DNA from: Nanobdellati archaeon
GTDB taxonomy: Archaea > EX4484-52 > GLR71
NCBI GenBank assembly: GCA_019429125.1
Contig: JAHYJO010000018.1
Location: 1 to 21,730, forward strand
Reading direction: 5' to 3'
DNA length: 21,730 nucleotides
Shown: piece by piece, positions 1,910 through 19,372 of the stretch
Position numbering within the stretch: position 1 is the first letter of the stretch
Layout of the letters: each line of letters begins with the position of its first letter
Position numbers and translations under genes: made by a program
The notes under the pieces: model-generated
What the model was told of the DNA's origin: nothing
What the model saw: only the letters and a program-made list of their open reading frames with translations
Database searches by the model: none

Positions 1910-2518
1910 ATGATATTTCAATATAAGGATTTTTCAATCGAGACAGATAACAATGTATATGAACCATCGGAGGATACTTATCTTTTGATTTCTGCGCTAG
2001 AGAAGATTGTTCTGAAAAAAGATTTTAAGATTCTTGAAGTTGGTTGTGGTACTGGGATTGTTAGTATTTCTTTGTCTTCTAAAGTTGCATCAGTTGTAGC
2101 TTGTGATATTAATTCTTATGCTGTAAAATTGGCTTTATCTAATGTTGAAAAAAATAGATGTAATAATGTTAAAGTTATTGAATCTGATTTGTTTAGTAAT
2201 ATTTCTGGTAAATTTGATTTGATTGTGTTTAACACTCCTTATCTTCCGCAAGATGCTGATGAGGATGTTTCCGGTGAGATTAATTATGCATGGGATGGAG
2301 GTGTGGATGGTCGGAAAGTCATTGATAGGTTTCTATCTGGAGTTTCGGATTTTCTTTCTGAAAAAGGTTGTATTCTCTTTTTAGAGTCATCTCTGTCTTC
2401 TTATGAGAAATCTATTAAATCTCTTGAATCTGTGGGGTTTCAGGTTGATGTTATAGGTAGACAAAAATTACATTTTGAAGAACTGGTCGTGGTTCGCGCG
2501 GTTAGAGGATTATCTTAA
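1910..2518 (+). CDS. HemK2/Mtq2-family SAM-dependent methyltransferase (probable release factor glutamine methyltransferase)
   Basis: VYEPSEDTYLL, SAM motif LEVGCGTG, FNTPY (NPPY-type), WDGGVDGR and C-terminal FEEL. Confidence 0.9.
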   Translation: MIFQYKDFSIETDNNVYEPSEDTYLLISALEKIVLKKDFKILEVGCGTGIVSISLSSKVASVVACDINSYAVKLALSNVEKNRCNNVKVIESDLFSNISGKFDLIVFNTPYLPQDADEDVSGEINYAWDGGVDGRKVIDRFLSGVSDFLSEKGCILFLESSLSSYEKSIKSLESVGFQVDVIGRQKLHFEELVVVRAVRGLS

Positions 2519-5083
2519 TTTTTCTTTGTCTGCAATCTCGGCATTTGTTGCTCTTGCTATATTACCCATGAATGTGAAATCTGCTGGTTTGTAGAAGAAC
2601 ATGTCACGCATAGGATCTAGACCGTGCGCTTTTATAGCCTGTACCTGCATTGCATAGAAATTGGCGTCAATGCCGAAGAATTGTTCTGGGAGCTCAGTTG
2701 GTTTTGTGTTTTTTTTAAGTTCTCCTGCTAGGGCTCTTAAGGCCAATGGCGCTTCATAAGTGCCACCGCCTGTATCTTTACCAACTTCCCAAACTAAGTA
2801 TGCAGCTTTCATACCTTTATCTTTTAAAACGTAGAGCCAATTATAGATGTATTCAACATCAAAAGACATCTTTTTTATTATTTTATGAAGACCTTGCGCA
2901 CCTGATGGTGGATTTATGTGAATCATTGATATATATTTTGCGTCATCCCCCTCTAAAAGAGCTATTTGTTGACGTGGATTAAGAAGATTTCCTGTTAGGT
3001 GCTCAAAGTCCATTGTATATGAGACATTATCGAAACCATAATGGTCTTTAAATGCTTTAATTATCTCTATATGGTCTGTCAAACTCATTATTCGTACTTT
3101 GCCTCGCCATTCTTCATTTAAGACATCTTGTGTTTCTATGAAAAAATGAACACCTTCATCAAACATATATCTATATATACTTTTTATATTTTCAAATACC
3201 ATCACTTTTGAGGAGTCTATCATTATATTTTTTTCTTGTCTATCCATACTGCCTTTGAAATGATTTTTTTCTCCTGGTTTTGAACTTTCAAGATAAAGAT
3301 TTCTGTCTGTTTCCATTGGTCTGTCAAGGTGTCCTTGAATATATTTTGCAGATACTGCGGCGACTAATTTTCTTAAGGGTATAATAATACCACCACCAGT
3401 AACGTTGGTGTATGCAATTATGTTATCGGGGTCAAGAAAACGAATCTTATTTTCTTTGTCTGTTTCATTAAAGTCTCCGAAAAGTTCGCGTTTATGTTTT
3501 TCTACATTTTTTTTGTTTTCATCCCACCAAGTACTTACTTCTCGATCTTCTATGACAATCTTTTCGTAAAGGTGGTCTTTTATGATATACATCCATTTGG
3601 CAAGTGTTCTATAAGCTACCTGTTCTTCGCCTTCCGAACCTTTTTGAACCCAATAGTCAAAATTTTTGGAAACGTTTCTTCGTGTATAATATTGCATAAC
3701 ATCAAGATAACCGTTCTCTTTAACATCTTCAAGAATTTTAATTTGTTCTTTAAGGTTTTTTATTTCTGAAACTTCAGTTATAAATGGGTGTTCTGATGGT
3801 GTTGTTTCACTTTCATCATTTTTTGTTCCTTCACCAATACTTTTATTAAATAAATCCAGAATGCCAGAAAAATCTCTGTCAAAAATATCTTTAGTAGTAA
3901 AACCATGTTGTTTTTCATGTGTGAGGATTGTATTGAAATAATAATCATATTCTTTTCTAAAATCAAAATACTCGTCAATGGTTGCATCATCTTTTTTTAA
4001 TTCAATTGAGTCTTTTTCATTGCTTGTTTTAAGCATCTCATTTATTTTATATTGTACATAATTGATTAGGTTTTCAGGGGGTATATCTTTTTCTTTTGGG
4101 AGGTATTTTGTTATTATTTTTTGTAATTCCATATTTTTAGAGTTATCAAGTTTATCTATTATTTTTCTCCAAGTACCAATGTCTCTGTCGAATAATTTTT
4201 TAAATACACCATATGCTTTATTATAATTATCTTTTATTTCACGGAACGTTTCTACATTTTTCATAGAAACCATTATGCTTGCTTCAGGTATTGTTCCTGG
4301 AAACCAGATGTCTTTGACAAATTTTGATATGGCCCAGTCTTTCAGTGTAGGTTCTGTTTCATTTTCTTTACATTTTGGTTTTAGTAAAACATTATATTTG
4401 TCTATTTTGTCTTGGTCTAAAATACTATCCTCATTTGCTGAATAGATATTCCATTTTAATCGAGGCACAAGAGGAGTTGTCTTATCAAGTAATCTCTTTC
4501 GTGTCTCATGATCATAACATAAAGGTGATTCAATGAATGTAGCAAGATTGTCTTTCCAAGGTGTCAGTAATGTGCTTGGTTGTGTTCTTGATGCTGCTTC
4601 TCCAAATTCAAGGATAGGTGTTGATGCGCTGTGCATCAGGATAAAGTTTGCCTTTACGACTTCGGTTGCGCCTAATACACCTGTCACTAAAGATTTATGA
4701 TTGACTTCCCAGATGGGACCGAGTGCGCTTGTGAGGTCTAGATTAACTCTTAGATGAATTCCTAAATCCATTCTATGTGTCTCTCGTATCTGTTTTATCC
4801 TTTCTGCAAGATGTGGCTCAAGAATTTCTGCATCATTCCAGAGATCAAGTTCAAGAAAATCGTAACCTTCTTTTGCGCCCTTGACTATTTTTCCGGCAAG
4901 CCCAGCATAATTGAGCATTGCACCCCCTACAATTGTTGGTTCACCAGGTGTTCCTGCAACTATATAGTCGGTTGGGCGGTTGGTTTTGGGGTCAAGGGGT
5001 GTGTGGTAAACAGTTCTGCGACCTTTGTAATTAATAGGAAATTGTGGCGCATTGTTTGTATTATTTTTCTTTGTCTCAGCCAT
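2510..5083 (-). CDS. Large hypothetical protein with a split xylose-isomerase/AP-endonuclease-2-like TIM barrel and a ~480-aa helical insertion
   Basis: 857-aa ORF with SD GAGG. Strand-end motifs occur in family order: FLELDL, LGIHL, ILMHSAS, [insert], FFIETQD, YTMDFEH, MIHINPP..GLH, LVWEVG. The fold call is from motif recognition only. Confidence 0.65.
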   Translation of the reverse strand: MAETKKNNTNNAPQFPINYKGRRTVYHTPLDPKTNRPTDYIVAGTPGEPTIVGGAMLNYAGLAGKIVKGAKEGYDFLELDLWNDAEILEPHLAERIKQIRETHRMDLGIHLRVNLDLTSALGPIWEVNHKSLVTGVLGATEVVKANFILMHSASTPILEFGEAASRTQPSTLLTPWKDNLATFIESPLCYDHETRKRLLDKTTPLVPRLKWNIYSANEDSILDQDKIDKYNVLLKPKCKENETEPTLKDWAISKFVKDIWFPGTIPEASIMVSMKNVETFREIKDNYNKAYGVFKKLFDRDIGTWRKIIDKLDNSKNMELQKIITKYLPKEKDIPPENLINYVQYKINEMLKTSNEKDSIELKKDDATIDEYFDFRKEYDYYFNTILTHEKQHGFTTKDIFDRDFSGILDLFNKSIGEGTKNDESETTPSEHPFITEVSEIKNLKEQIKILEDVKENGYLDVMQYYTRRNVSKNFDYWVQKGSEGEEQVAYRTLAKWMYIIKDHLYEKIVIEDREVSTWWDENKKNVEKHKRELFGDFNETDKENKIRFLDPDNIIAYTNVTGGGIIIPLRKLVAAVSAKYIQGHLDRPMETDRNLYLESSKPGEKNHFKGSMDRQEKNIMIDSSKVMVFENIKSIYRYMFDEGVHFFIETQDVLNEEWRGKVRIMSLTDHIEIIKAFKDHYGFDNVSYTMDFEHLTGNLLNPRQQIALLEGDDAKYISMIHINPPSGAQGLHKIIKKMSFDVEYIYNWLYVLKDKGMKAAYLVWEVGKDTGGGTYEAPLALRALAGELKKNTKPTELPEQFFGIDANFYAMQVQAIKAHGLDPMRDMFFYKPADFTFMGNIARATNAEIADKEKLR

Positions 5084-5118: not shown

Positions 5119-5616
5119 TTATTTCAATTCTTGCATACCACTTATGTTCTTGAATGTGTCTCTTAATTTGTATATATATTTCTCAGAAGTTATTCTGCAT
5201 CTGTTCCTGTATGTTTTGTAGAATGACTTGTAATACATCCACCAGAGCGTTTTCTGAAAAGAATTTACGTAAGGAAATTTAGTCTCAAGAACTCCGTATA
5301 TCTTTATGTTTATTGAGCCTTCATGTGTCTTAAGGTTTTCCTGGCCACTATAATCTGTATATAGAAATACATTTGTAAATTGGTCATAACCTCTTTTTGC
5401 ATGTATGTGGGTACGAAAACTGCCATCTGTTGCATCGTATTTGAATAATGATGTGTACAGACCACTTGAAGCTACATCAGCTCCAATTTTCATTATCATC
5501 TCTGCTTGTTTAAAAATGGTCAGAGGTCTTGGACCTTTATAGTTTATCGTTATCTTTTCAACTGGTGAAAGTACATAATCTTTGATGGTTATTTCATTCA
5601 AACTTTCTTTAGCCAC
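5119..5616 (-). CDS. Hypothetical protein, paralogue of the upstream 173-aa protein
   Basis: 165-aa ORF with a GTG start overlapping the upstream stop. Shares ITINYxGPxP and FP...Q...W....FY...R motifs with 5609..6130. Confidence 0.85.
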   Translation of the reverse strand: MAKESLNEITIKDYVLSPVEKITINYKGPRPLTIFKQAEMIMKIGADVASSGLYTSLFKYDATDGSFRTHIHAKRGYDQFTNVFLYTDYSGQENLKTHEGSINIKIYGVLETKFPYVNSFQKTLWWMYYKSFYKTYRNRCRITSEKYIYKLRDTFKNISGMQELK

Positions 5617-6130
5617 CTTGTCTCAACTCCTCTGCATACTGTTTTAAACCTTCAGCAAAGTCATTTGTAATCTTTTTGGTGAATTCATGATATCTGTCTC
5701 TCTTTTTCTGATAGAAAAGAGTCATCCAAAGACGCCATCCTAATTGCCAGAATATTGTCTGTTGTAAGAGTGTGTCTTGTGGAAATTCGCTCCAGAGTTG
5801 AGGCTCAAATAATATTTTTGCGGTTCCATTAGAACCTTCAACAAAACCTTCAAGTCCCACTTCTATTTTTGCAAAAGAATATACATCAAATACTTTAGAA
5901 ACTATCCAGCTGAACTTGAATTTTTGTTTTTCTCCTGCCTTTTCCCAAGTGTAAGTTACTTCCTGTATGTGTTCTTCAGGTACTTTGAATACTGTCACCA
6001 TCAGTTCACGGACTTTGTTGTAGAATCTTTGTGGATTTGGACCTGAATAGTTTATAGTTATGTCTTTCCTGAATTTTGACTTATCATAAACGTCATCGTA
6101 AATTGTTAACTTTGTCCTTGCAAAAACCAT
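5609..6130 (-). CDS. Hypothetical protein, first gene of the leftward operon
   Basis: 173-aa ORF with SD GAGG before the ATG. Alternating beta-strand pattern followed by a Trp/Tyr-rich C-terminal helix. Confidence 0.85.
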   Translation of the reverse strand: MVFARTKLTIYDDVYDKSKFRKDITINYSGPNPQRFYNKVRELMVTVFKVPEEHIQEVTYTWEKAGEKQKFKFSWIVSKVFDVYSFAKIEVGLEGFVEGSNGTAKILFEPQLWSEFPQDTLLQQTIFWQLGWRLWMTLFYQKKRDRYHEFTKKITNDFAEGLKQYAEELRQGG

Positions 6131-6708: not shown

Positions 6709-8670
6709 ATGGGCGTTGATAGTTTAAGTTGGGAGAAAGGCGGTCTGGGTGATGGTCATCCTGATCATATGAAACGGAGTGGTTGGGTGGCTGTAGGTCT
6801 CAATACTTATCGTAAAGTCAATCTAACATCTACTTTAGGAGCTACACAAGGTATATATGATGGTCTTCTTTTCGGGTTGGGTAATAAGGAATATAAAATT
6901 ATGAAAGTCAATGAAGATTTTCATGTAACTCCGCATGCACAGAATCCGTTTTACCAGAATGCAAAGGCACAGAGGGGTGAGCTTGAAAGAATCATAAGTA
7001 CTACTCTTAATGATATTGGTAATGAGGTAGGGCAATGGCAGCTTCTTCAGCATGATGTAAGGAAAGCTGAGGAGATGCTCAATTATTATACTTCTGATGA
7101 TGAGGCAGCACTTAAAACTATTTTTGTTGATCAGGTTGATTATTATACTGGCGGTGGTGGTGGCCAGGGTGAAGGACGGCTCAGTATGGCATTTATGCGC
7201 AAATCAAATATAATGCCCACTATTGTTGAAGATTTTCTTAGTATGGCAAATTTGGATGATCTTGCTGAAGGGGGCTCATTAGGTAAACTGCCACAGGTGG
7301 AAAAGAATTTTCTTAAAGCTAAATGGGCTGCATTTGCGCAGTGGAAAAATCTGTTCAAGGACGGGATAGATGAAAGATACCGGACTGTGAAATCACTCTG
7401 CAATTCTAAAGAGAGATTTATTGCAGAGAGACGGAATTGGCTCAAGCCACATGTTATGCAGCATAAGATGCTCAATAATTCATTGTCTACTGAGGGGGGA
7501 AGAGCTGGTCAGAATAATAATTTCTTTGACAGACCAGGGGAGTCAAGAAGCTTTACAAACCAGACTGTATGGCTTTGGAAACCTATAAGGACACGGCATA
7601 ATATTGACAGGGTTCCTGATGAGATGTATCAAAATCCTAGATATTTGGGTAAAAATGCTAAATATGGAGTGGTTAAAGCTTACGATTATCATGTACAGGA
7701 AAAATTTATTTATAATGCTGACTCTAATAAAGGTGGTTTTGTCGGCAGATATAATTGGATTACTGAAAAACAGATTGAGGCTTATGTTGAAGGTCTGACT
7801 CATATGAGTGATGCACAACATAAATTTGATCATCATGGGAAGTTAGATGAGAATGAGTGGTATTATACAGTCTTTACGATTGATTTTGAAAAAATAATAT
7901 TTAATGTAATGGCAAATGGTTCGCCTACACCGTTTGAGGATGGTACTTGGACAATACACGGATATATTGTCACAAAAAATATGTTGCTTATGAAACTTTT
8001 AGAACGAACGTGTGAAGATGAAAAGATAGAGATTGAGATGAATGATATTATCAATATGGATACGGATAAATATTATCTTAAATACCATTGCACAAAAGAG
8101 TTCGGGTCATATATGATGACTAAAGAGAATATGGTGTATGCACACAAAAAAAAGATACTTAAAGGCAAAGATTTCAAAGCTGCAGATGAAAATGGTAAAT
8201 TGGATGTTGATGGGAAAAAGTATGTTGAATCAGATTTCATATTGTTTGCTGAAGATGACCTTAAAAAGCTTGAGGAAGATGGAGGGGCTGGTGGACTCTC
8301 TTTTGATAAGGCGGGCAATCTTTTAATACCTGGTAGTTATTATGATGGTGGTGTGCGTAAGATTCGTGATGTTGCACTTGATGTACTAAAAAAAATTGTT
8401 CAAAAAAAGATTCGTAAATTCAATGATCATAGTGATATTGTGTTGCAGAGGGTTTCTGCGCCAGTTAAAAATGAGAGCAAATTTGTAAAGACTACAAAAG
8501 GGTTTTTCAAGAATTTTGGTGTCGACTTTAAATGGAAGGTTGAGGACGGACCATACCAGAGCGAGATGCTGGACGCACTCACACAAGGCACTTTCAAGCT
8601 TGCAGGGAGCACTTTCTGGGGACCTGAGATAATAGGTCCGCTTTATAGTTCATTTAATATTCCTTGGTAA
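6709..8670 (+). CDS. Large hypothetical protein with a predicted helical/coiled-coil N-terminal half
   Basis: 653-aa ORF with no recognised catalytic motif. Segments ALKTIFVDQVD, MPTIVEDF, KWAAFAQWK and RNWLKPH resemble an uncharacterised DPANN family as recalled; Gly-rich loop TGGGGGQGEG. Confidence 0.85.
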   Translation: MGVDSLSWEKGGLGDGHPDHMKRSGWVAVGLNTYRKVNLTSTLGATQGIYDGLLFGLGNKEYKIMKVNEDFHVTPHAQNPFYQNAKAQRGELERIISTTLNDIGNEVGQWQLLQHDVRKAEEMLNYYTSDDEAALKTIFVDQVDYYTGGGGGQGEGRLSMAFMRKSNIMPTIVEDFLSMANLDDLAEGGSLGKLPQVEKNFLKAKWAAFAQWKNLFKDGIDERYRTVKSLCNSKERFIAERRNWLKPHVMQHKMLNNSLSTEGGRAGQNNNFFDRPGESRSFTNQTVWLWKPIRTRHNIDRVPDEMYQNPRYLGKNAKYGVVKAYDYHVQEKFIYNADSNKGGFVGRYNWITEKQIEAYVEGLTHMSDAQHKFDHHGKLDENEWYYTVFTIDFEKIIFNVMANGSPTPFEDGTWTIHGYIVTKNMLLMKLLERTCEDEKIEIEMNDIINMDTDKYYLKYHCTKEFGSYMMTKENMVYAHKKKILKGKDFKAADENGKLDVDGKKYVESDFILFAEDDLKKLEEDGGAGGLSFDKAGNLLIPGSYYDGGVRKIRDVALDVLKKIVQKKIRKFNDHSDIVLQRVSAPVKNESKFVKTTKGFFKNFGVDFKWKVEDGPYQSEMLDALTQGTFKLAGSTFWGPEIIGPLYSSFNIPW

Positions 8671-8746
8671 AAATGTAAGTAATATGGCAATGTTTTTAAA
8701 AGTAATAGCAACAATTAATAGTCCGTAATATGTAATTTATTATAAG

Positions 8747-12583: not shown

Positions 12584-13456
12584 CTATCTTTTCACCTGAG
12601 TCTCTATATAATCTATTATTCTTTTTGCTATATTTATATCTGTTGCTTCTGTCATCCCTTTTATTCCTGGGTTGAGATTGACTTCAATTACTACTGGTCC
12701 GTCTTTGCTTTCAAGGATGTCTACGGCTAAGATTTTACAATTCATGATTTCTGCAACTTTAAGGCTTATCTCTTCAACTTCTTTTGTGGGTGTATATCGT
12801 ACTCCGGTACCGCCAATCTTTATGTTTGCGCGTTTCTCTCCTTCTTTTGCAACTCGTTTGTATGCGCCTGCAATCTCTCCGCCTACTATTAGAACTCTTA
12901 TGTCTTCACCTGGATTGTCTATGAATTCCTGTATCAAGACTTCTTGTTTTAATACTTCCATCGATTTTAATATTGATTTCATGGTGTTTGATTCCTTGAC
13001 ATACATTATACCTTTGCCACCACTGCCACCTTTTAGTTTTACCATGATCGGAAATTTTATTATGTCTACCATTTCTTCAGAATTCTCTCCGGTCTTGAAA
13101 AGATAGGTTTTGGGGACACATATCTTATTTCTTGCAAGCAATTCTGTCGTCAGGAATTTGTCATGCGCTATAAGTATTGTTTCAGCCTTATATGGTTTTG
13201 GTACATCAAAAAAATCAAATGCTTTAATTATCTGGTATCCGTATTCTTTTCGTGGTGCATCAATTTTTGGGAGAAAATAATCAACATTTGTAAGATCTTG
13301 CCTGTTGTATTCACATCTTATCTTATCTTTGTCCACTATAAGATTCATACGGTTTATGGGTACATATTTTACATTGAACACTTTTTTTGCCTCATCAATT
13401 ATCATCCGCGTTGTAGTTGATAGCTTTCCTGGCGATGCTATAAGTATCTTATTCAT
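12584..13456 (-). CDS. RimK-family ATP-grasp amino acid ligase (intact motifs)
   Basis: HDKFLT, VPKT, FPIMVK..GSGGKGI, LIQEFI, DIRVLIVG, RANIKIGG, AVDIL and VIEVNLNPG. SD GAGGTGG precedes the start. Confidence 0.93.
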   Translation of the reverse strand: MNKILIASPGKLSTTTRMIIDEAKKVFNVKYVPINRMNLIVDKDKIRCEYNRQDLTNVDYFLPKIDAPRKEYGYQIIKAFDFFDVPKPYKAETILIAHDKFLTTELLARNKICVPKTYLFKTGENSEEMVDIIKFPIMVKLKGGSGGKGIMYVKESNTMKSILKSMEVLKQEVLIQEFIDNPGEDIRVLIVGGEIAGAYKRVAKEGEKRANIKIGGTGVRYTPTKEVEEISLKVAEIMNCKILAVDILESKDGPVVIEVNLNPGIKGMTEATDINIAKRIIDYIETQVKR

Positions 13457-14333
13457 GTGATTTCCACCTCATATCGTGAAGCCACTCTAAGAATTTGTTG
13501 AATATTGGGTTCTCATCTTTTATTGTTGTGCGTTGTCCTAGGTAAGAAAGACATTTATCTAAAAGATTAATGTCATATATATCTCCATAAAAATGGATTT
13601 TTGGTTTTATGTTAAATCCTACAACCATGGCTTTATCATTAGCTTTTAATAGGTTTATCTGACATATTGTCGCTTTTAATAGTTGGGTTACAGACATTAT
13701 GGTATTTCTTTCTTCAGTAGTTAATTTATATCGTGAATTTTTTCCTTTGACTGCATATGTATTGTTGCCTATGACAAGAACGCTTATTGCGGTTGCATCT
13801 TTAAATGTCTCTTGTAATGTTATTGGTTGATTCAAAGTTTCAAGTGTATCTACCACACCCTTTGCGGATTCTGCTGAATCAAGAACAATTGTTCCAGTCT
13901 TACTGTATGGTAATTTTAGTATTGCTGGATAAATCATTGTATCTATACTTTTTTCTATTGCAGTCCGGGACATTGAAAGATATGTCCGTGGTGTCTGTAT
14001 CTTATTGTTGTTTAAAGAGAATGGGAGAAGGAATTCATTATAGCCATAAAGAAGTGATTCGCTGCTTAATGGTGATAAGATCTTGTGCTGTTCAAATATT
14101 TTCAAGAGCACATAACCAAAGTCTGCATTTCTTTTGCTAATTCTTGGAAATATGACATCAAAATCTAAAAGATTTATGTTTTTGAAGAAAGGCGCTGCCG
14201 TTTCTTTGCAGGTTTCTATCCGAATCATCTCAATTGGCGCATAAAGGACTGAGTCAAACTCTTTTTTTGCCAGTTCCATCAGGTCAATTTCGCCCTGTGA
14301 TCTTTTATCAGGACCGATTATGCATAATTTCAT
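13449..14333 (-). CDS. Degenerate RimK-like ATP-grasp protein (probable pseudoenzyme)
   Basis: Retains DVIFPRI, TPRTY, YPAILK and TLQETF, but lacks the Gly-rich loop, DIR, RAN..GG, the D of VD and the E of ExN. SD AGGTGA precedes the start. Confidence 0.75.
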   Translation of the reverse strand: MKLCIIGPDKRSQGEIDLMELAKKEFDSVLYAPIEMIRIETCKETAAPFFKNINLLDFDVIFPRISKRNADFGYVLLKIFEQHKILSPLSSESLLYGYNEFLLPFSLNNNKIQTPRTYLSMSRTAIEKSIDTMIYPAILKLPYSKTGTIVLDSAESAKGVVDTLETLNQPITLQETFKDATAISVLVIGNNTYAVKGKNSRYKLTTEERNTIMSVTQLLKATICQINLLKANDKAMVVGFNIKPKIHFYGDIYDINLLDKCLSYLGQRTTIKDENPIFNKFLEWLHDMRWKSHE

Positions 14334-14678
14334 CAGAAGCCACTCACCTTAAATAAAGGGATGAAAATTATTTGTGGAGGGAACTATATAAAGATTAAGG
14401 GGGGGTGGCACTGTTCAAAAAGTGAGTCATTTTGGATTTTTTGAAAAGTATTTTTGTTTATAATACTATATTAATACAGGTCTGATAAGGACCTTCTATG
14501 TATTTTGCATAAGACATTAGGTTTGTTTTAAAATGATTGTATTAGTTGAAAACACTTCGAAAATGAACAGTTCTGTTTGTGTGCGTTTAAAAATAAAATA
14601 GACATTGCAATACATATTTCTATAAATGTTGATGGGATTATAACAATACTTAAAAGCTTTTATCTGTCATTACTTTTG

Positions 14679-16103
14679 GTGGTTTTTATTATAGATATTC
14701 CTAGTTCGGGTACACTTTATTCTGCAGATGGTGTTGAGATTAAATTCTCTAAAGTTGGGACTGATAAAAAGTTTGCAGGGAAATACAAGGATAAAGATGA
14801 TAAATCGTATCCTGAACGCGGGACTTATAGCCAAGGCAATTCATTGTCACCTGTTTCGGTTGTAATCCCTATGCCTGATAAGAAAGCTATACAGAGCGCA
14901 ATTGAGGCGGGTGCTGCAATGGCCGGGTCTGTGGTCACTGCAAACATCGGTGTTGAAAAGATAGTCCTCAATACGATATCAAATCCTAATATAAGATACA
15001 TTGTCCTTTTCGGTAAAGATTCGGCTGGGCATTTTTCAGGTGATGCAATATATAATCTTCATGCAAATGGTGTTGATGAAAAGAGGAAGGTCATAGGGTC
15101 AAAAGGGCTTACTCCATATCTTAAAAATATACCTATTGAAGCTATCAACCGGTTTCGTGAACAGATAATATCTGTAATTAATGTCATGGGTATTGATGAT
15201 TTATCTGTGCTTGAAAAAGTGATACATTTTACAATTCAGGAACCCGAAAATGCAATTAAGATAGATATTGTCTGTGATGGAGCTATTGAATCATTTGTTC
15301 TTTTTGATCCTGGTAAATTCGATAAGGCGCCATTGAACATATCTATAACTGATACAATTGCATCTAATGGTCTATATGAAGCACTTACTCATTATTCATC
15401 ATCAATTATTGCGCCGTCTATAGCTACTGCGTATCCTTTACTTGTTGATGCTGTGATGTCAGCAGGGCTTGAACAGAACCTGCCTGATGAAAGGCTGGCG
15501 TATACTCGTGAGCTTCTTAATGTTATAGTCCATATTGAAAGACCGCTTGAAGATATGGTACCTCTTGGATATAAGCCTGAAGCATGGCTTAAAGATTCAA
15601 AAGAAGTTCAACAGTATCTTGGAAAGTACGCAAATACATATTTCAGCGATGATTTGGCTGTAGGTCTTGAAAATGGTAAGATTTCAAATGTGACAAAGAA
15701 GAAAGGTAAAGACGGGATGGAGTACACTTACGGGTATTTCATACAGAAACATTATGAAGTCCAGCAGATATTAAAGGTTGCAAATGAGGTAGCAGACAGT
15801 ATTAAAAATAAAGAACCTTCAAGACGTATATTGATATCTTTGCCTGATCCTAAGATATTTAAGAAAGTCAGTGAAGTTCCTTGCTTTATTGATTACCAGC
15901 TTTTCCCAAGATATAATAGTTATGAAGATTTCTGGGAGTTGCATGCGACTGCGCACATGAGGTCTCATGATGTAAAAAACGCATTTCCTGCTAACGCTTA
16001 TGCTTTTGCTACAATTCTTGATAAGATAAGTTCAATAACAGGTACAAGACCTGGCTCATTGACTATGTTTTTGGGTAGTGCTCATGTTTATCTGAATAGA
16101 TAA
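14679..16103 (+). CDS. Fusion of an MtrA-like corrinoid-binding domain with an archaeal-type thymidylate synthase (ThyA) domain
   Basis: N-terminal: AGAAMAG..TANIGVEKIVLNTISNPNIRYIVLFG..SAGHFSG...LHANGVD...IGSKG..PYLKNIP.EAINRFREQ (MtrA). C-terminal: RELLNV, EYTYG, SRR, VPCF, MRSHDV..AFPAN, GSAHVY (ThyA). The start is uncertain: the frame is open from 14577, with candidates at 14676-14691. Confidence 0.9.
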   Translation: MVFIIDIPSSGTLYSADGVEIKFSKVGTDKKFAGKYKDKDDKSYPERGTYSQGNSLSPVSVVIPMPDKKAIQSAIEAGAAMAGSVVTANIGVEKIVLNTISNPNIRYIVLFGKDSAGHFSGDAIYNLHANGVDEKRKVIGSKGLTPYLKNIPIEAINRFREQIISVINVMGIDDLSVLEKVIHFTIQEPENAIKIDIVCDGAIESFVLFDPGKFDKAPLNISITDTIASNGLYEALTHYSSSIIAPSIATAYPLLVDAVMSAGLEQNLPDERLAYTRELLNVIVHIERPLEDMVPLGYKPEAWLKDSKEVQQYLGKYANTYFSDDLAVGLENGKISNVTKKKGKDGMEYTYGYFIQKHYEVQQILKVANEVADSIKNKEPSRRILISLPDPKIFKKVSEVPCFIDYQLFPRYNSYEDFWELHATAHMRSHDVKNAFPANAYAFATILDKISSITGTRPGSLTMFLGSAHVYLNR

Positions 16104-16136
16104 TAAAATGGTATAAAAAAATAAAAATAAAAAAGA
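16104..16136 (-). terminator. T-rich tract downstream of tfb in a convergent intergenic region
   Basis: A-runs on the + strand (AAAAAAATAAAAATAAAAAAG) read as oligo-T on the - strand just after the tfb stop. Confidence 0.45.
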
Positions 16137-16143
16137 AGGTAGA

Positions 16144-17097
16144 TTAATTACGTTCTTCACTGATTCCGCGCTTTTCGTTTTCGGCAGCTTTCTTTTCAAC
16201 TTCTTCTTTTATGCCTAGTTTCTCTACAAGATCCTTATATCTGTTTCTTATTGTCACTTCAGTCACACCGACAACGTCTGCTATGTCTCTTTGTGTTCTC
16301 TTTTCACCGCAGAGTACTGCTGCAATATAAAGGGCTGAAGCAGCTATTCCTGTAGGGCCTTTACCTGAGATTATATCTTCATCGGCTGCTTTACTAAGGA
16401 TCTCTTTTGCTTTTGCATGGACATTTCCTGAAAGACCAAGAAGTGAACCGAATCGTGGTATATATTCTTTTGATGTTGCTGGAAGGATTCTTATGTTTAA
16501 TTCACGGCAAATGTATCTGTATGCACGGCCAATCTCTCTTTTTTCTATACCTGATGCAGCTGACAGTTCTGCTAGAGTTCTTGGCGAACCGTGTTCTCTT
16601 GCAATAGCATAGATTAACGCAGTTATTATGCTTTCCATGGACCGTCCTCTTACGAGACCCATAGTGACTGCTTTTTCGTAAAGTCTTGCGACTTCTTCAT
16701 GGATGCTGTTGTTAAGGCCTAAGTATGAAATCTGTCGTACTAGTTCGGATAAGGAATAGGATAAGTTTCGGTCTTTTGATTTTGTAAGCCTTTTGTTCCA
16801 TTTTCGTAATCTGTAATACTGTGCTCTTTTTTTGATTGGAACCTTGTAAAGTTCTGCTGTGCTGTTGCCTATGTCTGTAGAAAAACCTTTGTCGTGTTTT
16901 GTAAATGTTATCGGTGCTCCGGTTCTTGTCTTTTTTGATTGCTGTTCAACGTCAAAAGCTCTCCATTCTGGTGAACTGTCAACATCATTGATATCAATCA
17001 TTGTGCCACATCTCATACAGATAAGTTCTCCTTTTGTAGAATCTCTTGTGAACTTTTCAAAACCACACTCTTTACATTTTTTTTCACTTTCAGACAT
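16144..17097 (-). CDS. tfb: Transcription initiation factor IIB
   Basis: Zn ribbon CKEC...CMRCG, PEWRAF B-reader, two cyclin repeats (GLVRGRS, GKGPTGIAA) and HTH VTEVTIRNRYK. Confidence 0.98.
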   Translation of the reverse strand: MSESEKKCKECGFEKFTRDSTKGELICMRCGTMIDINDVDSSPEWRAFDVEQQSKKTRTGAPITFTKHDKGFSTDIGNSTAELYKVPIKKRAQYYRLRKWNKRLTKSKDRNLSYSLSELVRQISYLGLNNSIHEEVARLYEKAVTMGLVRGRSMESIITALIYAIAREHGSPRTLAELSAASGIEKREIGRAYRYICRELNIRILPATSKEYIPRFGSLLGLSGNVHAKAKEILSKAADEDIISGKGPTGIAASALYIAAVLCGEKRTQRDIADVVGVTEVTIRNRYKDLVEKLGIKEEVEKKAAENEKRGISEERN

Positions 17098-18835: not shown

Positions 18836-19372
18836 TTAAAAATCTATAGTTTTTATGAACTCGTCGACTTTTTCGTAAAGTTTATCCAAAGTGTCGTTGT
18901 TTTCAATATCATAGTCTGCCATCTCGAGCACGTCACCCATACCTTTGTTTTTCCTGTCACGTTCGTCACGCGCAAAAAAATCAGTCTCAGTTTTAGGGTC
19001 TTTTTCGGAGCGTCTTTTGTATCTTTTGTCATCATCTGCTACAATGGATAATAGGATAAAATGTGATGATTCCTTTTTGAAAAGGTCTGTCTCTTCTGGG
19101 CTTCTCACCCCCGATATTATCGATTTTGGGAACTTTTTAGCTTTTTCAATGGTCTTTACGGCAACTATATCGTTGCCGTATTCTTTTCGCATTGCATCTC
19201 CTACATGAGATAAGTTATCTTTTGTTATTTCCAAGTTTCGTTTCATACATTCGCTTTTAAGCATGTCACTCATGGTAAATACTTTGAAATTGTATTTATC
19301 TGCAATGTAATCTGCGACGGTGTCTTTACCGGCTCGCGCAAGACCTGTTATGCCTATTATTATATTTGACAT
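18836..19372 (-). CDS. P-loop kinase, dephospho-CoA/nucleoside monophosphate kinase-like (UPF0200 type)
   Basis: IIGITGLARAGKDT Walker A, SGVRSPEE, RYKRR lid and ADYDIEN. Confidence 0.85.
   Translation of the reverse strand: MSNIIIGITGLARAGKDTVADYIADKYNFKVFTMSDMLKSECMKRNLEITKDNLSHVGDAMRKEYGNDIVAVKTIEKAKKFPKSIISGVRSPEETDLFKKESSHFILLSIVADDDKRYKRRSEKDPKTETDFFARDERDRKNKGMGDVLEMADYDIENNDTLDKLYEKVDEFIKTIDF

What the first reader, a model, noticed from the sequence alone, without database searches (positions are those of the whole stretch)
14679..16103. Soluble MtrA (cobamide-binding)-thymidylate synthase fusion: candidate corrinoid-linked route to dTMP
Seen: one ORF joins a complete MtrA-like domain (~14808-15330) to a ThyA domain. 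The MtrA part keeps the GH motif (His codon 15030-15032). The ThyA part keeps the PC cysteine (codon 15882-15884), RSxD, the downstream Asn and SAHxY. There is no membrane anchor and no other mtr, DHFR or methanogenesis gene in the window. Established: MtrA is the corrinoid-carrying subunit of the methanogen Mtr complex and uses this His as cobalt ligand; ThyA uses the Cys nucleophile and the Asn selects dUMP. Inference: the fusion may supply the C1 unit or reducing power for dUMP methylation via a cobamide or scavenged host methyl-pterin, instead of the methylene-THF/DHFR cycle. This would suit a symbiont with minimal folate metabolism. I recall related MtrA-like/ThyA/DUF4346 architectures in annotations but no biochemical characterisation. 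It also means mtrA hits here should not be read as methanogenesis.
Basis: partly seen in the sequence, partly recalled or inferred. Interest (0 to 1): 0.85.

Follow-up and report, generated by a model that had tools for sequence, protein, structure and literature searches.

The report
Corrinoid-linked thymidylate synthase fusion
A tiny symbiont-type archaeon makes its DNA base thymine with an enzyme fused to a vitamin-B12-binding module, and the gene neighbourhoods of its relatives suggest a B12-mediated methyl-transfer route to thymidylate that nobody has tested.

Summary
Window 14679-16103 (+) is one 474-aa ORF joining an MtrA-type corrinoid-binding domain (Pfam E 3e-41) to a short, methanogen-type ThyA domain (E 8e-15). 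The fusion recurs in about 55 protein clusters and in 6 of 7 other genomes of the genus, so it is not a mis-assembly.

The 1.16-Mb, 93%-complete genome has no ThyX, second ThyA, thymidine kinase, DHFR, SHMT, MTHFR, MtrH or pterin-binding protein. In its phylum (42 genomes), ThyX and the MtrA/ThyA genes are nearly complementary.

Relatives with unfused genes link the parts repeatedly:
- dCMP deaminase-MtrA-MtrH operons
- dCTP deaminase-MtrA pairs
- MtrH-ThyA pairs
- an MtrA-MtrH fusion followed by a ThyA-like gene
- MTHFR and SHMT close by

Best reading (about 0.5): ThyA acts as a methyl-corrinoid:dUMP methyltransferase, so no dihydropterin forms and no DHFR is needed.

Two problems remain. Lineages with the fusion, including this one, lack any known enzyme to re-methylate the corrinoid. 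Two sister genera carry a degenerate MtrA domain. No biochemistry exists, and my literature searches found no description of this enzyme.

The parts
14679..16103 (+). Whole gene: MtrA-like::ThyA-like fusion, 474 aa, GTG start, TAA stop
   Evidence: ORF list and translation. Same length and start as the public gene call and the orthologues. Pfam finds both domains.
14808..15260 (+). MtrA-type corrinoid-binding domain (about residues 44-194)
   Evidence: PF04208 E 3.2e-41. phmmer to 5LAA E 3.4e-32. Foldseek to 5L8X/5LAA gives a target TM-score of 0.92.
14937..14945 (+). T87-A88-N89: Thr53 and Asn55 of MtrA are kept, Glu54 is replaced by Ala
   Evidence: Alignment to 5LAA and residue roles from PMC4915002. 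The triplet is T-A-N in 49 of 55 fused proteins and T-E-N in all 7 unfused relatives examined.
14982..14996 (+). N-P-N-I-R motif of the MtrA fold (residues 102-106)
   Evidence: N102, P103, N104 and R106 are invariant, and I105 is kept in 54 of 55 fused proteins.
15030..15032 (+). His118, equivalent of the cobalt ligand His84 of MtrA
   Evidence: Codon CAT. Aligned with His84. Kept in 51 of 55 fused proteins.
15261..15413 (+). Beta-rich connector (about residues 195-245) with conserved Q187-E188-P189, D210 and G212 just before and inside it
   Evidence: Secondary structure of the AlphaFold2 model and conservation. In unfused relatives this stretch belongs to the N-terminus of the ThyA-like protein (profile positions 201-448).
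15414..16100 (+). Short methanogen-type ThyA domain (about residues 246-474), ending at E. coli ThyA position 212 of 264
   Evidence: PF00303 E 8.2e-15. TIGR03283 scores 81.6 bits, below its cut-off of 174.55. hhalign to E. coli ThyA gives probability 99.2%.
15729..15734 (+). Y351-G352, equivalent to Tyr94-Gly95 of E. coli ThyA
   Evidence: Y351 is kept in 53 of 55 and G352 in 55 of 55.
15822..15827 (+). R382-R383, equivalent to Arg126-Arg127 (phosphate binding across the ThyA dimer)
   Evidence: R382 is kept in 54 of 55.
15882..15884 (+). Cys402, equivalent to the nucleophile Cys146
   Evidence: Codon TGC. Invariant in 55 of 55. Aligned.
15960..15995 (+). R428-S429-H430-D431 ... N439, equivalent to Arg166, Ser167, Asp169 and Asn177 (dUMP binding and uracil selection)
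   Evidence: R428 is kept in 55 of 55, S429 in 54, D431 in 54 and N439 in 53.
16083..16091 (+). H469-V-Y471, equivalent to His207 and Tyr209
   Evidence: H469 is kept in 54 of 55 and Y471 in 55 of 55.

Best explanation
The gene encodes the only recognisable thymidylate synthase of a reduced, DPANN-type archaeon.

The C-terminal domain is a short ThyA of the methanogen type. It binds dUMP and activates C5 through Cys402. This is inferred from residue conservation.

The N-terminal domain is a soluble MtrA-type module. It most likely holds a cobamide base-off/His-on through His118. This is inferred from 8 of 9 contact residues.

The most likely mechanism is a methyl relay of the kind used by three-component corrinoid methyltransferase systems. 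The corrinoid carries the one-carbon unit as methyl-Co(III). The ThyA domain acts as the methyl-corrinoid:dUMP methyltransferase and releases dTMP and Co(I). The pterin would therefore never be oxidised to the dihydro form, and no DHFR would be needed.

In relatives with unfused genes the rest of the chain is encoded next to these genes: SHMT (methylene-pterin), MTHFR (methyl-pterin), MtrH (methyl-pterin to corrinoid), and dCMP or dCTP deaminase (dUMP).

In the window's own lineage all of these upstream enzymes are missing. How the corrinoid is re-methylated there is unknown. It could be a host-derived methyl donor or an unrecognised methyltransferase.

What is shown: the domain composition, the residue conservation, the gene linkages and the phyletic patterns. 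What is inferred: corrinoid binding, methyl transfer to dUMP, and the identity of the product.
For: 1. Both domains are real and under selection.
- Family matches.
- In 55 fused proteins the following are invariant or at least 90% conserved: Cys402, Arg428, Ser429, Asp431, Asn439, His469, Tyr471, Tyr351-Gly352, Arg382, and the MtrA residues Thr87, Asn89, Gly91, Asn98, NPNIR and His118.
- The AlphaFold2 model is confident as one body: pLDDT 91, pTM 0.84.

2. The corrinoid contact residues listed for 5LAA (PMC4915002, section 6 read) map as follows: Tyr18 to Y50, Thr53 to T87, Asn55 to N89, Gly57 to G91, Val61 to I95, Asn64 to N98, His84 to H118. Only Glu54 changes, to Ala88.

3. It is the thymidylate synthase.
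- The own genome has no ThyX, no second ThyA-like hit and no thymidine kinase. It does have a dCMP deaminase.
- In the phylum, ThyX and the MtrA/ThyA genes are nearly complementary: 28 genomes have only the latter, 9 have only ThyX, 3 have both, and 2 have neither (those two are 68% and 72% complete).
- ThyX is found in 0 of 12 fused-gene genomes from other phyla.

4. No DHFR accompanies it. DHFR is found above its cut-off in 1 of 42 genomes, G017. There it sits between a ThyA hit and SHMT, and no MtrA-like gene was found in that genome.

5. Linkage of MtrH, MtrA and ThyA.
- G041 carries the operon dCMP deaminase-MtrA-MtrH, with ThyA-like, a flavin reductase, MTHFR, SHMT and DUF4346 within 20 kb. 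The homologous MtrA and MtrH neighbours occur in 3 of 3 genomes of that genus.
- MtrH and ThyA-like are adjacent on one strand in G002, G005, G006 and G008.
- A dCTP deaminase lies directly upstream of MtrA-like in 2 of 4 loci examined.
- In G031 an MtrA-MtrH fusion is followed by a divergent ThyA-like gene.
- An independent metagenome operon reads MtrA-MtrH-marker 14-MetE-like-ThyA.
- A dCTP deaminase lies directly upstream of fused genes in L186, L187 and L192.

6. MTHFR is present without MetE in genus g6 (4/4 against 0/4) and in G041. In those genomes MtrH is the only recognised user of methyl-pterin.

7. Folate-specific features of canonical ThyA are absent. There are no Trp80/Trp83 equivalents, Leu172 is Asn, Phe176 is Ala, and the C-terminal 52 residues are missing.
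Against: 1. The 13 genomes of the phylum that carry the fused gene (genera g1, g10, g12 and G036) have no MtrH, SHMT or MTHFR (0 of 13 each). The own genome has none by HMM or by tblastn. It also has no MttB, no URO-D-type methyltransferase, no classical B12 domain, no RACo-type activase and no B12-dependent ribonucleotide reductase. The relay therefore has no known first half in the very organism under study.

2. MtrH was found in only 3 of 12 fused-gene genomes of other phyla.

3. In genera g10 and g11 the MtrA domain of the fusion is degenerate, with His replaced by Phe and NPNIR lost, while every ThyA residue is kept. These genomes have no ThyX either. Four of the 55 fused proteins replace the His by Tyr or Trp. 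The ThyA domain may therefore work without a His-ligated corrinoid.

4. Glu54 of the His-Glu pair is lost in 55 of 55 fused proteins: Ala in 51, Ser in 3 and Pro in 1.

5. 65 of 80 metagenome loci with stand-alone methanogen-type ThyA show none of the partners within 6 kb.

6. The ThyA residues that are kept (Tyr94, Asp169, Asn177) are equally compatible with the classical methylene-transfer chemistry.

7. There is no biochemical datum, and I could not measure the His-to-Cys distance because the tools do not give model coordinates.
Confidence: 0.5

Rival explanations
1. Classical chemistry with an accessory domain. The ThyA domain takes a methylene group and a hydride from a scavenged methylene-tetrahydropterin, as canonical ThyA does. 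The MtrA-like domain is structural or regulatory, or it handles the cofactor in some other way, such as holding or recycling the pterin.
For: All residues of the classical mechanism that can be aligned are kept. Fused proteins of genera g10 and g11 have a degenerate MtrA domain but an intact ThyA domain. Fused lineages lack MtrH. Unfused relatives of the ThyA part reach or nearly reach the cut-off of TIGR03283 (182.2 and 172.9 bits against 174.55), the family that NCBI names thymidylate synthase. From recall only, methanogen extracts were reported to use methylene-H4MPT-type cofactors for dTMP.
Against: No DHFR was found in 12 of 12 genomes searched of the 13 that carry the fused gene, and no SHMT in any of the 13. 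The folate-stacking Trp residues and the C-terminal lid are absent. This reading does not explain why MtrA-like genes sit in operons with dUMP-forming enzymes and MtrH, why MtrH sits next to ThyA-like, or why MTHFR occurs without methionine synthase. The corrinoid tail-binding residues are invariant in the fused family, which is not expected of a mere scaffold.
Confidence: 0.2
2. The corrinoid acts as reductant. The ThyA domain attaches a methylene unit to dUMP, from a methylene-pterin or from formaldehyde. Co(I) of the MtrA domain then delivers the two electrons that the pterin (in ThyA) or FADH2 (in ThyX) normally provides.
For: It would explain a fused enzyme that works without MtrH and without DHFR. 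The loss of the His-Glu pair in fused forms could fit an altered redox role.
Against: No specific evidence supports it. It does not explain the MtrH and MTHFR linkage in relatives. No low-potential reductase or activase was found next to the gene. No methylene source is encoded in the genome. I recall no precedent for such chemistry in MtrA-type proteins.
Confidence: 0.12
3. Not a thymidylate synthase. The protein makes another C5-modified pyrimidine nucleotide (hydroxymethyl-dUMP, or a dCMP derivative), or it is a decaying relic in a genome that imports thymidine nucleotides.
For: The fold also matches T4 dCMP hydroxymethylase and phage dCMP hydroxylases. Two family members (P0033, P0034) carry Asp in place of Asn439. 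DPANN-type genomes import many metabolites (general knowledge).
Against: Asn439, the uracil-selecting residue, is kept here and in 53 of 55 members. The family is complementary with ThyX across 42 genomes. No thymidine kinase is present. Conservation is strong within the genus, at 76-89% identity. dUMP-forming enzymes are neighbours in relatives.
Confidence: 0.08
4. Assembly chimera: the two domains belong to separate genes that were joined by mis-assembly.
For: None found. Read-level data were not available.
Against: The same full-length fusion occurs in 5 other genomes of the genus, with one more cut by a contig end. It also occurs in about 55 protein clusters from independent assemblies and in contigs of Methanoperedens, Thermoprotei and Aenigmatarchaeota bins. 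The reading frame is continuous, with a conserved connector.
Confidence: 0.01

Closest known systems
Canonical thymidylate synthase ThyA (EC 2.1.1.45, Pfam PF00303)
   Same: Same fold. The Cys nucleophile, the four phosphate-binding Arg, Ser167, Asp169, Asn177, Tyr94, His207 and Tyr209 are all kept.
   Different: It stops at E. coli position 212 of 264, has no Trp80/Trp83 equivalents, and has Leu172 replaced by Asn and Phe176 by Ala. It is never accompanied by DHFR in this phylum. It carries an N-terminal corrinoid-binding domain.
Methanogen-type short thymidylate synthase (NCBIfam TIGR03283, thy_syn_methano)
   Same: This is the best-matching ThyA model over the whole domain (profile 3-194 of 201). 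Unfused relatives in the same phylum reach or nearly reach its cut-off, at 182.2 and 172.9 bits against 174.55.
   Different: The window's domain scores only 81.6 bits and is fused to MtrA. The cofactor of this family is, as far as I recall, not settled with pure enzyme. My one search for its M. jannaschii locus tag, as I recall that tag, found no paper.
MtrA of the methanogen Mtr complex, and the cytoplasmic MtrA homologues (PDB 5LAA, 5L8X; PMC4915002)
   Same: About 50% identical over 144 residues with the same fold (target TM-score 0.92). The His84 ligand and the nucleotide-tail contacts are kept.
   Different: There is no transmembrane helix and no mtr operon. Glu54 is Ala. It scores below the TIGR01111 cut-off, at 131 bits against 249. 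Its partner is a ThyA domain rather than MtrH and coenzyme M.
Three-component corrinoid methyltransferase systems (MT1, corrinoid protein, MT2), for example the MtrH-family enzyme MtgA with its corrinoid protein
   Same: In relatives an MtrH-family enzyme (also similar to MtgA, 186 bits), an MtrA-type corrinoid protein and a candidate methyl acceptor enzyme are encoded together.
   Different: The proposed MT2 has the ThyA fold and its acceptor is a carbon atom of dUMP, which has no described precedent in the searches I ran. The window's genome has no MT1 and no known activase.
Flavin-dependent thymidylate synthase ThyX
   Same: It fills the same physiological slot: it replaces the MtrA/ThyA genes in 9 of 42 genomes of the phylum. 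It also yields dTMP without producing dihydrofolate (established knowledge).
   Different: The fold and the cofactor are unrelated.
Bifunctional DHFR-TS of protozoa and plants
   Same: It shows the same design logic: ThyA is fused to the module that deals with its cofactor. These are structural hits.
   Different: The partner domain here is not a reductase of the DHFR family but a corrinoid binder.

Membership tests
ThyA (PF00303) | Profile match above the curated cut-off | tested here: met
   55.1 bits against 24.3, although only profile positions 88-213 of 266 are matched.
ThyA (PF00303) | Catalytic Cys plus the dUMP-binding residues (Arg126/127, Arg166, Ser167, Asp169, Asn177, His207, Tyr209, Tyr94) | tested here: met
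   Alignments to human, mouse and E. coli enzymes. Conserved in 53-55 of 55 relatives.
ThyA (PF00303) | Folate-binding elements: Trp80/Trp83, the Leu172/Phe176 pocket and the C-terminal lid | tested here: not met
   No aligned Trp, Asn434 and Ala438 instead, and the protein ends at E. coli position 212. The N-terminal third of that alignment has low confidence.
ThyA (PF00303) | Methylene-tetrahydrofolate-dependent dTMP formation with dihydrofolate release | not testable with these tools
   Needs an enzyme assay.
Methanogen-type ThyA (TIGR03283) | Score above the equivalog cut-off | tested here: not met
   81.6 bits against 174.55. Unfused relatives score 182.2 and 172.9.
MtrA (PF04208 / TIGR01111) | Profile match above the cut-off | tested here: inconclusive
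   Pfam gives 141 bits against 25, which is met. The TIGR01111 equivalog gives 131 bits against 249.15, which is not met.
MtrA (PF04208 / TIGR01111) | His84 lower ligand of cobalt | tested here: met
   His118 aligns with His84.
MtrA (PF04208 / TIGR01111) | Glu54 hydrogen-bonded to His84 | tested here: not met
   Ala88. It is Ala in 51 of 55 fused proteins.
MtrA (PF04208 / TIGR01111) | Contacts of the nucleotide tail (Tyr18, Thr53, Gly57, Val61, Asn64) and Asn55 | tested here: met
   Y50, T87, G91, I95, N98 and N89. They are invariant or at least 90% conserved, apart from I95, which did not reach my 85% conservation cut-off.
MtrA (PF04208 / TIGR01111) | C-terminal membrane helix and a place in the mtrEDCBAFGH operon | tested here: not met
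   No hydrophobic segment. No mtr genes in the window, and no MtrH in the genome.
MtrA (PF04208 / TIGR01111) | Binds a corrinoid | not testable with these tools
   Needs reconstitution and UV-visible or EPR spectroscopy.
Three-component corrinoid methyltransferase system | A methyl donor:corrinoid methyltransferase (MT1) encoded in the genome | tested here: not met
   Own genome: no MtrH, Pterin_bind, MttB or URO-D and no tblastn hit. It is met in relatives with unfused genes, where MtrH is found in 15 of 42 genomes.
Three-component corrinoid methyltransferase system | Corrinoid protein and acceptor methyltransferase physically or genetically coupled | tested here: met
   They are fused here. 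In relatives they are linked by operons and by alternative fusions.
Three-component corrinoid methyltransferase system | Reductive activase for the corrinoid | tested here: not met
   No RACo_C_ter hit and no DUF2114 hit in the own genome. DUF2114 is only my candidate for this role, based on its neighbourhood in relatives.

The most novel reading that the evidence does not exclude
This family would represent a third mechanistic class of thymidylate synthase. A ThyA-fold enzyme would methylate dUMP with an intact methyl group taken from a protein-bound methyl-cobamide, loaded in most lineages by MtrH from methyl-tetrahydropterin. dTMP synthesis would then draw on the methyl rather than the methylene level of the C1 pool and need no dihydropterin reductase. 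The unfused partners belong to the methanogen-type ThyA family (TIGR03283), and one operon couples them with methanogenesis marker 14 and a MetE-like protein. The same route could therefore be the normal one in methanogens and many other archaea, and could give a function to soluble MtrA/MtrH pairs in non-methanogens.
Probability: 0.4. Interest if true: 0.92.

Novelty: new variant of a known kind. Interest (0 to 1): 0.8.

Why it matters
Only two ways of making thymidylate are established, ThyA and ThyX. Both take a methylene group from a folate-type cofactor. A route that passes a methyl group through vitamin B12 would be new enzymology for an essential step of DNA synthesis.

If true, it would explain several things:
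- how many archaea with a ThyA-like gene do without DHFR;
- a role for the MtrA and MtrH genes that keep turning up in non-methanogens, where a preprint I read in passages says only that they have been repurposed;
- why reading mtrA hits as methanogenesis in metagenome surveys can mislead.

It also poses a sharp question for symbiont biology. The fused enzyme persists in the most reduced genomes although every known supplier of its one-carbon unit is gone. The missing input probably comes from the host.

The hypothesis is directly testable with recombinant proteins and labelled methylcobalamin.

Tried and rejected
- Conserved neighbours of the fused gene. I clustered ORFs around fused genes from several lineages. 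The RimK pair and TFB are shared only within the genus, so this is plain synteny. DUF1512 recurs in Aenigmatarchaeota loci and in G041. Nothing suggests a missing methyltransferase.
- Partners in the own genome. tblastn with MtrH (two versions), MTHFR, SHMT, DUF4346, DUF2114 (two versions), a MetE-like protein, a flavin reductase, a dCTP deaminase and two unknown ORFs of the G041 cluster found nothing. Only the dCMP deaminase and DUF1512 queries hit.
- Complex prediction on the two domains of the window's protein as separate chains gave no verdict (score 0.01, mark 0.32). It is reported here only.
- The look-up of sequencing runs for window 14400-16200: none was listed and no RNA holder was listed. 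Read laying was therefore not used, and there is no read-level check of the junction.
- Distance from His118 to Cys402: the tools return no model coordinates, so I could not measure it.
- Generalising the linkage to all methanogen-type ThyA genes: 65 of 80 metagenome loci had none of the partners in the flanks, so the extension to methanogens stays speculative.
- I first thought that the ars-linked stand-alone MtrA-like proteins shared the T-A-N motif. The count shows that 50 of 67 have T-E-N and 12 have T-A-N, so I dropped that idea.
- Literature. Ten searches found no paper that links MtrA or MtrH with thymidylate synthase, and none that holds the word DUF4346 or the locus tag I recalled for the M. 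jannaschii enzyme. The supplementary alignments of PMC4915002, which list MtrA homologues of bacteria and non-methanogens, might mention fused forms, and I could not see them.
- Papers recalled but not seen: Krone et al. 1994, Xu et al. 1999, Nyce and White 1996, Schroeder and Thauer 1999. They are used only as marked recall.
Full report
THE OBJECT

Window 14679-16103 (+) is a single open frame. A TTG at 14577 would add 34 residues. The public gene call (P0002, 474 aa) and all close orthologues begin at the position of the GTG at 14679.

Pfam finds MtrA (PF04208, E 3.2e-41) in the first half and Thymidylat_synt (PF00303, E 8.2e-15, profile positions 88-213 of 266) in the second half. NCBIfam adds that the whole second half fits the short methanogen-type model TIGR03283 (profile 3-194 of 201). 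The score is 81.6 bits, below the cut-off of 174.55.

No 19-residue window exceeds a Kyte-Doolittle mean of 1.49, so there is no membrane helix.

The rest of the window is archaeal housekeeping: TFB, aRF1, RNase P subunits p30 and Pop5, two RimK-type ATP-grasp ligases, a glycosyltransferase and CBS proteins. The genome is 1.16 Mb in 32 contigs and 93.5% complete. That is the profile of a DPANN-type symbiont.

THE MtrA HALF

It is about 50% identical over 144 residues to the solved cytoplasmic MtrA homologue of Methanothermus fervidus (5LAA, E 3.4e-32). The AlphaFold2 model superposes on 5L8X and 5LAA with a target TM-score of 0.92.

The paper on that structure (PMC4915002) names the contacts of the cobalamin. 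I read passages and all of section 6. In the alignment they map as follows:

| 5LAA | This protein |
|---|---|
| Tyr18 | Y50 |
| Thr53 | T87 |
| Glu54 | A88 |
| Asn55 | N89 |
| Gly57 | G91 |
| Val61 | I95 |
| Asn64 | N98 |
| His84 | H118 |

In an alignment of 55 fused proteins, T87, G91, N98, N102, P103, N104 and R106 are invariant. N89, I105 and H118 are at least 90% conserved. Eight of the nine contacts are thus kept.

The exception is Glu54, which hydrogen-bonds the ligand His in MtrA. It is Ala here and in 51 of 55 fused proteins. The triplet with the His reads T-A-N/H in 49 of 55. All 7 unfused MtrA-like proteins of the phylum that I examined, and the MtrA-MtrH fusion, keep T-E-N/H.

THE ThyA HALF

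phmmer alignments to human, mouse and other enzymes, and an hhalign comparison of the family profile with E. coli ThyA (probability 99.2%, E 2e-18), give these equivalences:

| E. coli ThyA | This protein |
|---|---|
| Tyr94-Gly95 | Y351-G352 |
| Arg126-Arg127 | R382-R383 |
| Cys146 | C402 |
| His147 | F403 |
| Arg166, Ser167, Asp169 | R428, S429, D431 |
| Asn177 | N439 |
| His207, Tyr209 | H469, Y471 |

These residues are kept in 53 to 55 of the 55 relatives.

The folate side of the pocket differs. Nothing aligns with Trp80 or Trp83. Leu172 is Asn434, and Phe176 is Ala438. The protein ends at E. coli position 212, so the last 52 residues, including the C-terminal lid, do not exist. The N-terminal third of that alignment has low confidence. 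I therefore do not claim the fate of Glu58.

The whole protein folds as one confident body: pLDDT 91.0, pTM 0.84.

NOT A MIS-ASSEMBLY, AND NOT RARE

The word-based search found about 55 clusters with both Pfam domains. They are named after Nanohaloarchaea, Aenigmarchaeota, Thermoprotei and unclassified archaeal bins.

The profile search over 1.84 billion representatives found 411 proteins at E <= 1e-30. Pfam on ten of them showed further arrangements:
- MtrA-ThyA-DUF4346
- MtrA-DUF4346-ThyA
- ThyA-DUF4346
- MtrA-DUF4346
- TusA-MtrA

A search with one MtrA-ThyA-DUF4346 protein found about 50 more of that type. A few are named after Thermoproteota, Parcubacteria and Aenigmarchaeota bins and annotated simply as thymidylate synthase.

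In the genus of the window, 6 of 7 other genomes have the fusion, one of them cut by a contig end. Contigs assigned to Methanoperedens, Thermoprotei, Thermoproteales and Aenigmatarchaeota carry it as well.

IS IT THE THYMIDYLATE SYNTHASE?

In the own genome I found no ThyX, no second ThyA-like hit, no thymidine kinase and no DHFR. A dCMP deaminase is present.

Across the 42 genomes held for the phylum, the family profile hits 31 and ThyX hits 12. The cross-tabulation is:
- 28 genomes have only the MtrA/ThyA genes.
- 9 have only ThyX: all 4 of genus g5, all 4 of g9, and G035.
- 3 have both: G018, G039 and G040.
- 2 have neither: G023 and G027, which are 72% and 68% complete.

Relatives are not independent, so I give no statistic. 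The switch nevertheless occurs in several genera.

None of 12 genomes from other phyla that carry the fusion has ThyX. Their completeness is not given.

DHFR passes its cut-off in a single genome, G017. There it lies between a ThyA hit and a bacterial-looking SHMT, with no MtrA-like gene. It serves as an internal control for what a classical ThyA-DHFR-SHMT cluster looks like.

THE COMPARATIVE ARGUMENT FOR A METHYL RELAY

Three genera of the phylum have the two halves as separate genes: g4, g6 and g13. MtrH (15 of 42 genomes) is found in g4 (7 of 8), g6 (4 of 4), g13 (3 of 3) and in G031 of genus g3, and in none of the other nine genera.

MTHFR follows the same three genera: g4 6 of 8, g6 4 of 4, g13 1 of 3. 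It also occurs in 2 of 4 genomes of the ThyX genus g9. DUF4346 follows too: g4 7 of 8, g6 3 of 4, g13 3 of 3, plus G031.

The genes are linked in several independent ways:

- (a) G041 carries, on one strand, DUF1512 - dCMP deaminase - MtrA-like - MtrH (Pfam E 8e-81). Then comes a 3111-aa gene on the other strand. After it lie ThyA-like, two unknown ORFs, a flavin reductase, MTHFR, SHMT and a stand-alone DUF4346. All of this lies within 20 kb. The MtrA-MtrH pair and its deaminase neighbour recur in the other two genomes of the genus.
- (b) In genus g4, MtrH and ThyA-like are adjacent on the same strand in G002, G005, G006 and G008 (coordinates).
- (c) In g4 a dCTP deaminase gene ends 10-16 bases before the MtrA-like gene in both loci examined. 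In the two g6 loci the upstream gene is different. Two unrelated dUMP-forming enzymes therefore sit in front of MtrA-like genes in different genera.
- (d) G031 has MtrA and MtrH fused in one 544-aa protein. It is followed at once by a 454-aa protein whose first half is a divergent ThyA-like domain (hhalign probability 96.7%, E 3.5e-10).
- (e) A metagenome contig (L143, with a near-copy L137) has MtrA-like, MtrH (E 9e-119), DUF2114, a short MetE-type methionine synthase and ThyA-like on one strand. The last two genes overlap. NCBIfam names the DUF2114 protein methanogenesis marker 14 (524 bits).
- (f) A dCTP deaminase lies directly upstream of fused MtrA-ThyA-DUF4346 genes in L186, L187 and L192, and of a stand-alone ThyA in L183.

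MtrH-family enzymes move methyl groups between N5 of a tetrahydropterin and a corrinoid protein. This is established for Mtr. NCBIfam also matches the G041 protein to the tetrahydrofolate enzyme MtgA.

MTHFR makes methyl-pterin. In g6 (MTHFR 4 of 4, MetE 0 of 4) and in G041 there is no MetE-type methionine synthase to use it. I did not search for MetH. Mer was found in 0 of 42 genomes.

The simplest chain that uses all linked genes is this:
1. Serine gives methylene-pterin (SHMT).
2. Methylene-pterin gives methyl-pterin (MTHFR, perhaps with the flavin reductase).
3. Methyl-pterin gives methyl-Co(III) on MtrA (MtrH).
4. Methyl-Co(III) gives dTMP (ThyA-like), with dUMP supplied by the deaminase.

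Chemically, the C5 carbanion formed after Cys addition to C6 would attack the methyl-cobalt bond. The equivalent carbanion attacks S-adenosylmethionine in C5-pyrimidine methyltransferases. This last step is an inference without precedent in the searches I ran.

The net reaction would leave the pterin reduced. That fits the absence of DHFR.

WHAT DOES NOT FIT

The 13 genomes of the phylum with the fused gene are the own genus, g10, g12 and G036. They have none of MtrH, SHMT or MTHFR (0 of 13 each). They have DUF4346 only as a weak match inside the fused ORF of G036.

The own genome also lacks:
- Pterin_bind, MttB and URO-D-type methyltransferases;
- the classical B12-binding domain;
- the RACo activase;
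- B12-dependent ribonucleotide reductase.

tblastn with the partner proteins of relatives finds only the dCMP deaminase and DUF1512, which are adjacent on contig 13.

MtrH occurs in 3 of 12 fused-gene genomes of other phyla.

The first half of the relay is thus missing exactly where the fusion exists. Fusion, loss of Glu54 and loss of MtrH go together.

In genera g10 and g11 the MtrA domain has decayed. His is replaced by Phe, NPNIR is lost, and the tail contacts are changed. Every ThyA residue is kept. Four of the 55 aligned proteins have Tyr or Trp at the His position.

Three readings are possible. These enzymes may bind the corrinoid without a protein ligand. The ThyA domain may be able to work without it. 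Or they may be decaying.

These facts keep my confidence in the methyl-corrinoid mechanism for this particular protein near 0.5. My confidence that it is the cell's thymidylate synthase is about 0.8.

The rival readings are set out separately with their evidence: classical chemistry with an accessory domain, the corrinoid as reductant, another product, and a chimera.

COMPARISON WITH WHAT IS KNOWN

The protein works like, and is homologous to, ThyA on the dUMP side and MtrA on the corrinoid side. It fails defining features of both families: the folate elements and equivalog scores for ThyA, and Glu54, the membrane helix, the operon and the equivalog score for MtrA.

It resembles DHFR-TS in design and ThyX in physiological role.

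Ten full-text searches found no paper that connects MtrA or MtrH with thymidylate synthase, and none that contains DUF4346. A preprint on Methanonezhaarchaeia, of which I read only passages, says only that MtrAH has been repurposed in diverse non-methanogenic lineages. Subscription journals and supplementary files are outside what I could search.

From recall only, the cofactor of the purified methanogen enzyme was never settled, and the methanogen MetE homologue was reported to use methylcobalamin. If that recall is right, the L143 operon, with MetE-like and ThyA-like genes behind MtrA and MtrH, would make sense as two acceptors served by one methyl-corrinoid carrier.

VERDICT

The object is a new variant of known kinds. 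If the mechanism holds, it would amount to a new class of thymidylate synthase.

Noticed in passing
L027-L093 (genome-contig loci), MtrA-like gene at about 8000-8700 of each locus: Stand-alone soluble MtrA-like proteins (about 225-285 aa) of many bacteria and archaea sit in arsenic-resistance-type clusters. The taxa include Acidobacteriota, Planctomycetota, Chloroflexota, Bathyarchaeia and Methanoregula. An Acr3-type SBF permease occurs in 37 of 80 loci, ArsP in 29, an ArsR-type regulator in 37, a small thioredoxin in 22, a DsbD-like membrane protein in 17 and a Methyltransf_31 enzyme in 15. MtrA fused to an LMWPc/ArsC-type domain also exists. This may point to a corrinoid protein in arsenic methylation or demethylation.
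   Followed up: partly
L143:3739-5058 (+) and L101:1532-2872 (-): DUF2114, which NCBIfam names methanogenesis marker 14 (TIGR03285, 524 and 295 bits), lies inside an MtrA-MtrH-...-MetE-like-ThyA operon. It also lies next to the MtrA-MtrH fusion of a DPANN-type genome with no other sign of methanogenesis. It may serve soluble MtrA/MtrH, for instance as an activase, but that is untested.
   Followed up: partly
G000 contig 13, 29383-31034 (L107:1420-3158, - strand); L100:1160-2916; L022-L024: A DUF1512 gene directly precedes the dCMP deaminase gene in the window's genome and in G041. DUF1512 also lies a few kb from the fused gene in three Aenigmatarchaeota loci. Its function is unknown.
   Followed up: partly
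G041:C1:215020-216530 and the equivalent places in G002-G008, G039 and G040: A stand-alone DUF4346 gene (about 110-130 aa) lies next to SHMT in 10 genomes of the phylum (coordinates; Pfam). The same domain ends many MtrA-ThyA fusions and dihydropteroate-synthase-like proteins.
   Followed up: partly
L101:4693-6057 (+), protein P0222: This 454-aa protein follows the MtrA-MtrH fusion of G031. Its first half is a divergent ThyA-like domain that keeps YTYG, the Pro-Cys pair, R-V-H-D and P-A-N. By eye, its second half looks like a second, more decayed copy. It may be a single-chain pseudo-dimer.
   Followed up: partly
Proteins P0033 and P0034 (fused family members, 460 and 465 aa): The ligand His is replaced by Tyr, the uracil-selecting Asn439 by Asp, and Tyr351 by Pro. 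These could be a dCMP-directed offshoot of the family.
   Followed up: no
G039:C25:2177-3265 and G040:C25:4679-5779: Two divergent ThyX-like domains lie in tandem within one open frame of about 430 aa. These genomes also keep the unfused MtrA, MtrH and ThyA set.
   Followed up: no
window 12584-13456 (-) and 13449-14333 (-): Two overlapping RimK-family ATP-grasp genes are transcribed divergently from the fusion gene. The first is a good rimK_fam member, with partial similarity to MptN, LysX and CofF. The second is much more divergent. The pair is conserved next to the fusion gene only within the genus. A role in glutamylating a scavenged cofactor is pure speculation.
   Followed up: partly
window 2510-5083 (-), 5119-6130 (-), 6709-8670 (+): Four ORFs (857, 165, 173 and 653 aa) have no Pfam match at E <= 0.01.
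   Followed up: no
window 18836-19372 (-): A 178-aa P-loop kinase has weak matches to deoxynucleotide monophosphate kinase and to the kinase part of an anti-phage dCTP deaminase model. It may be a nucleotide kinase relevant to dTMP use.
   Followed up: no
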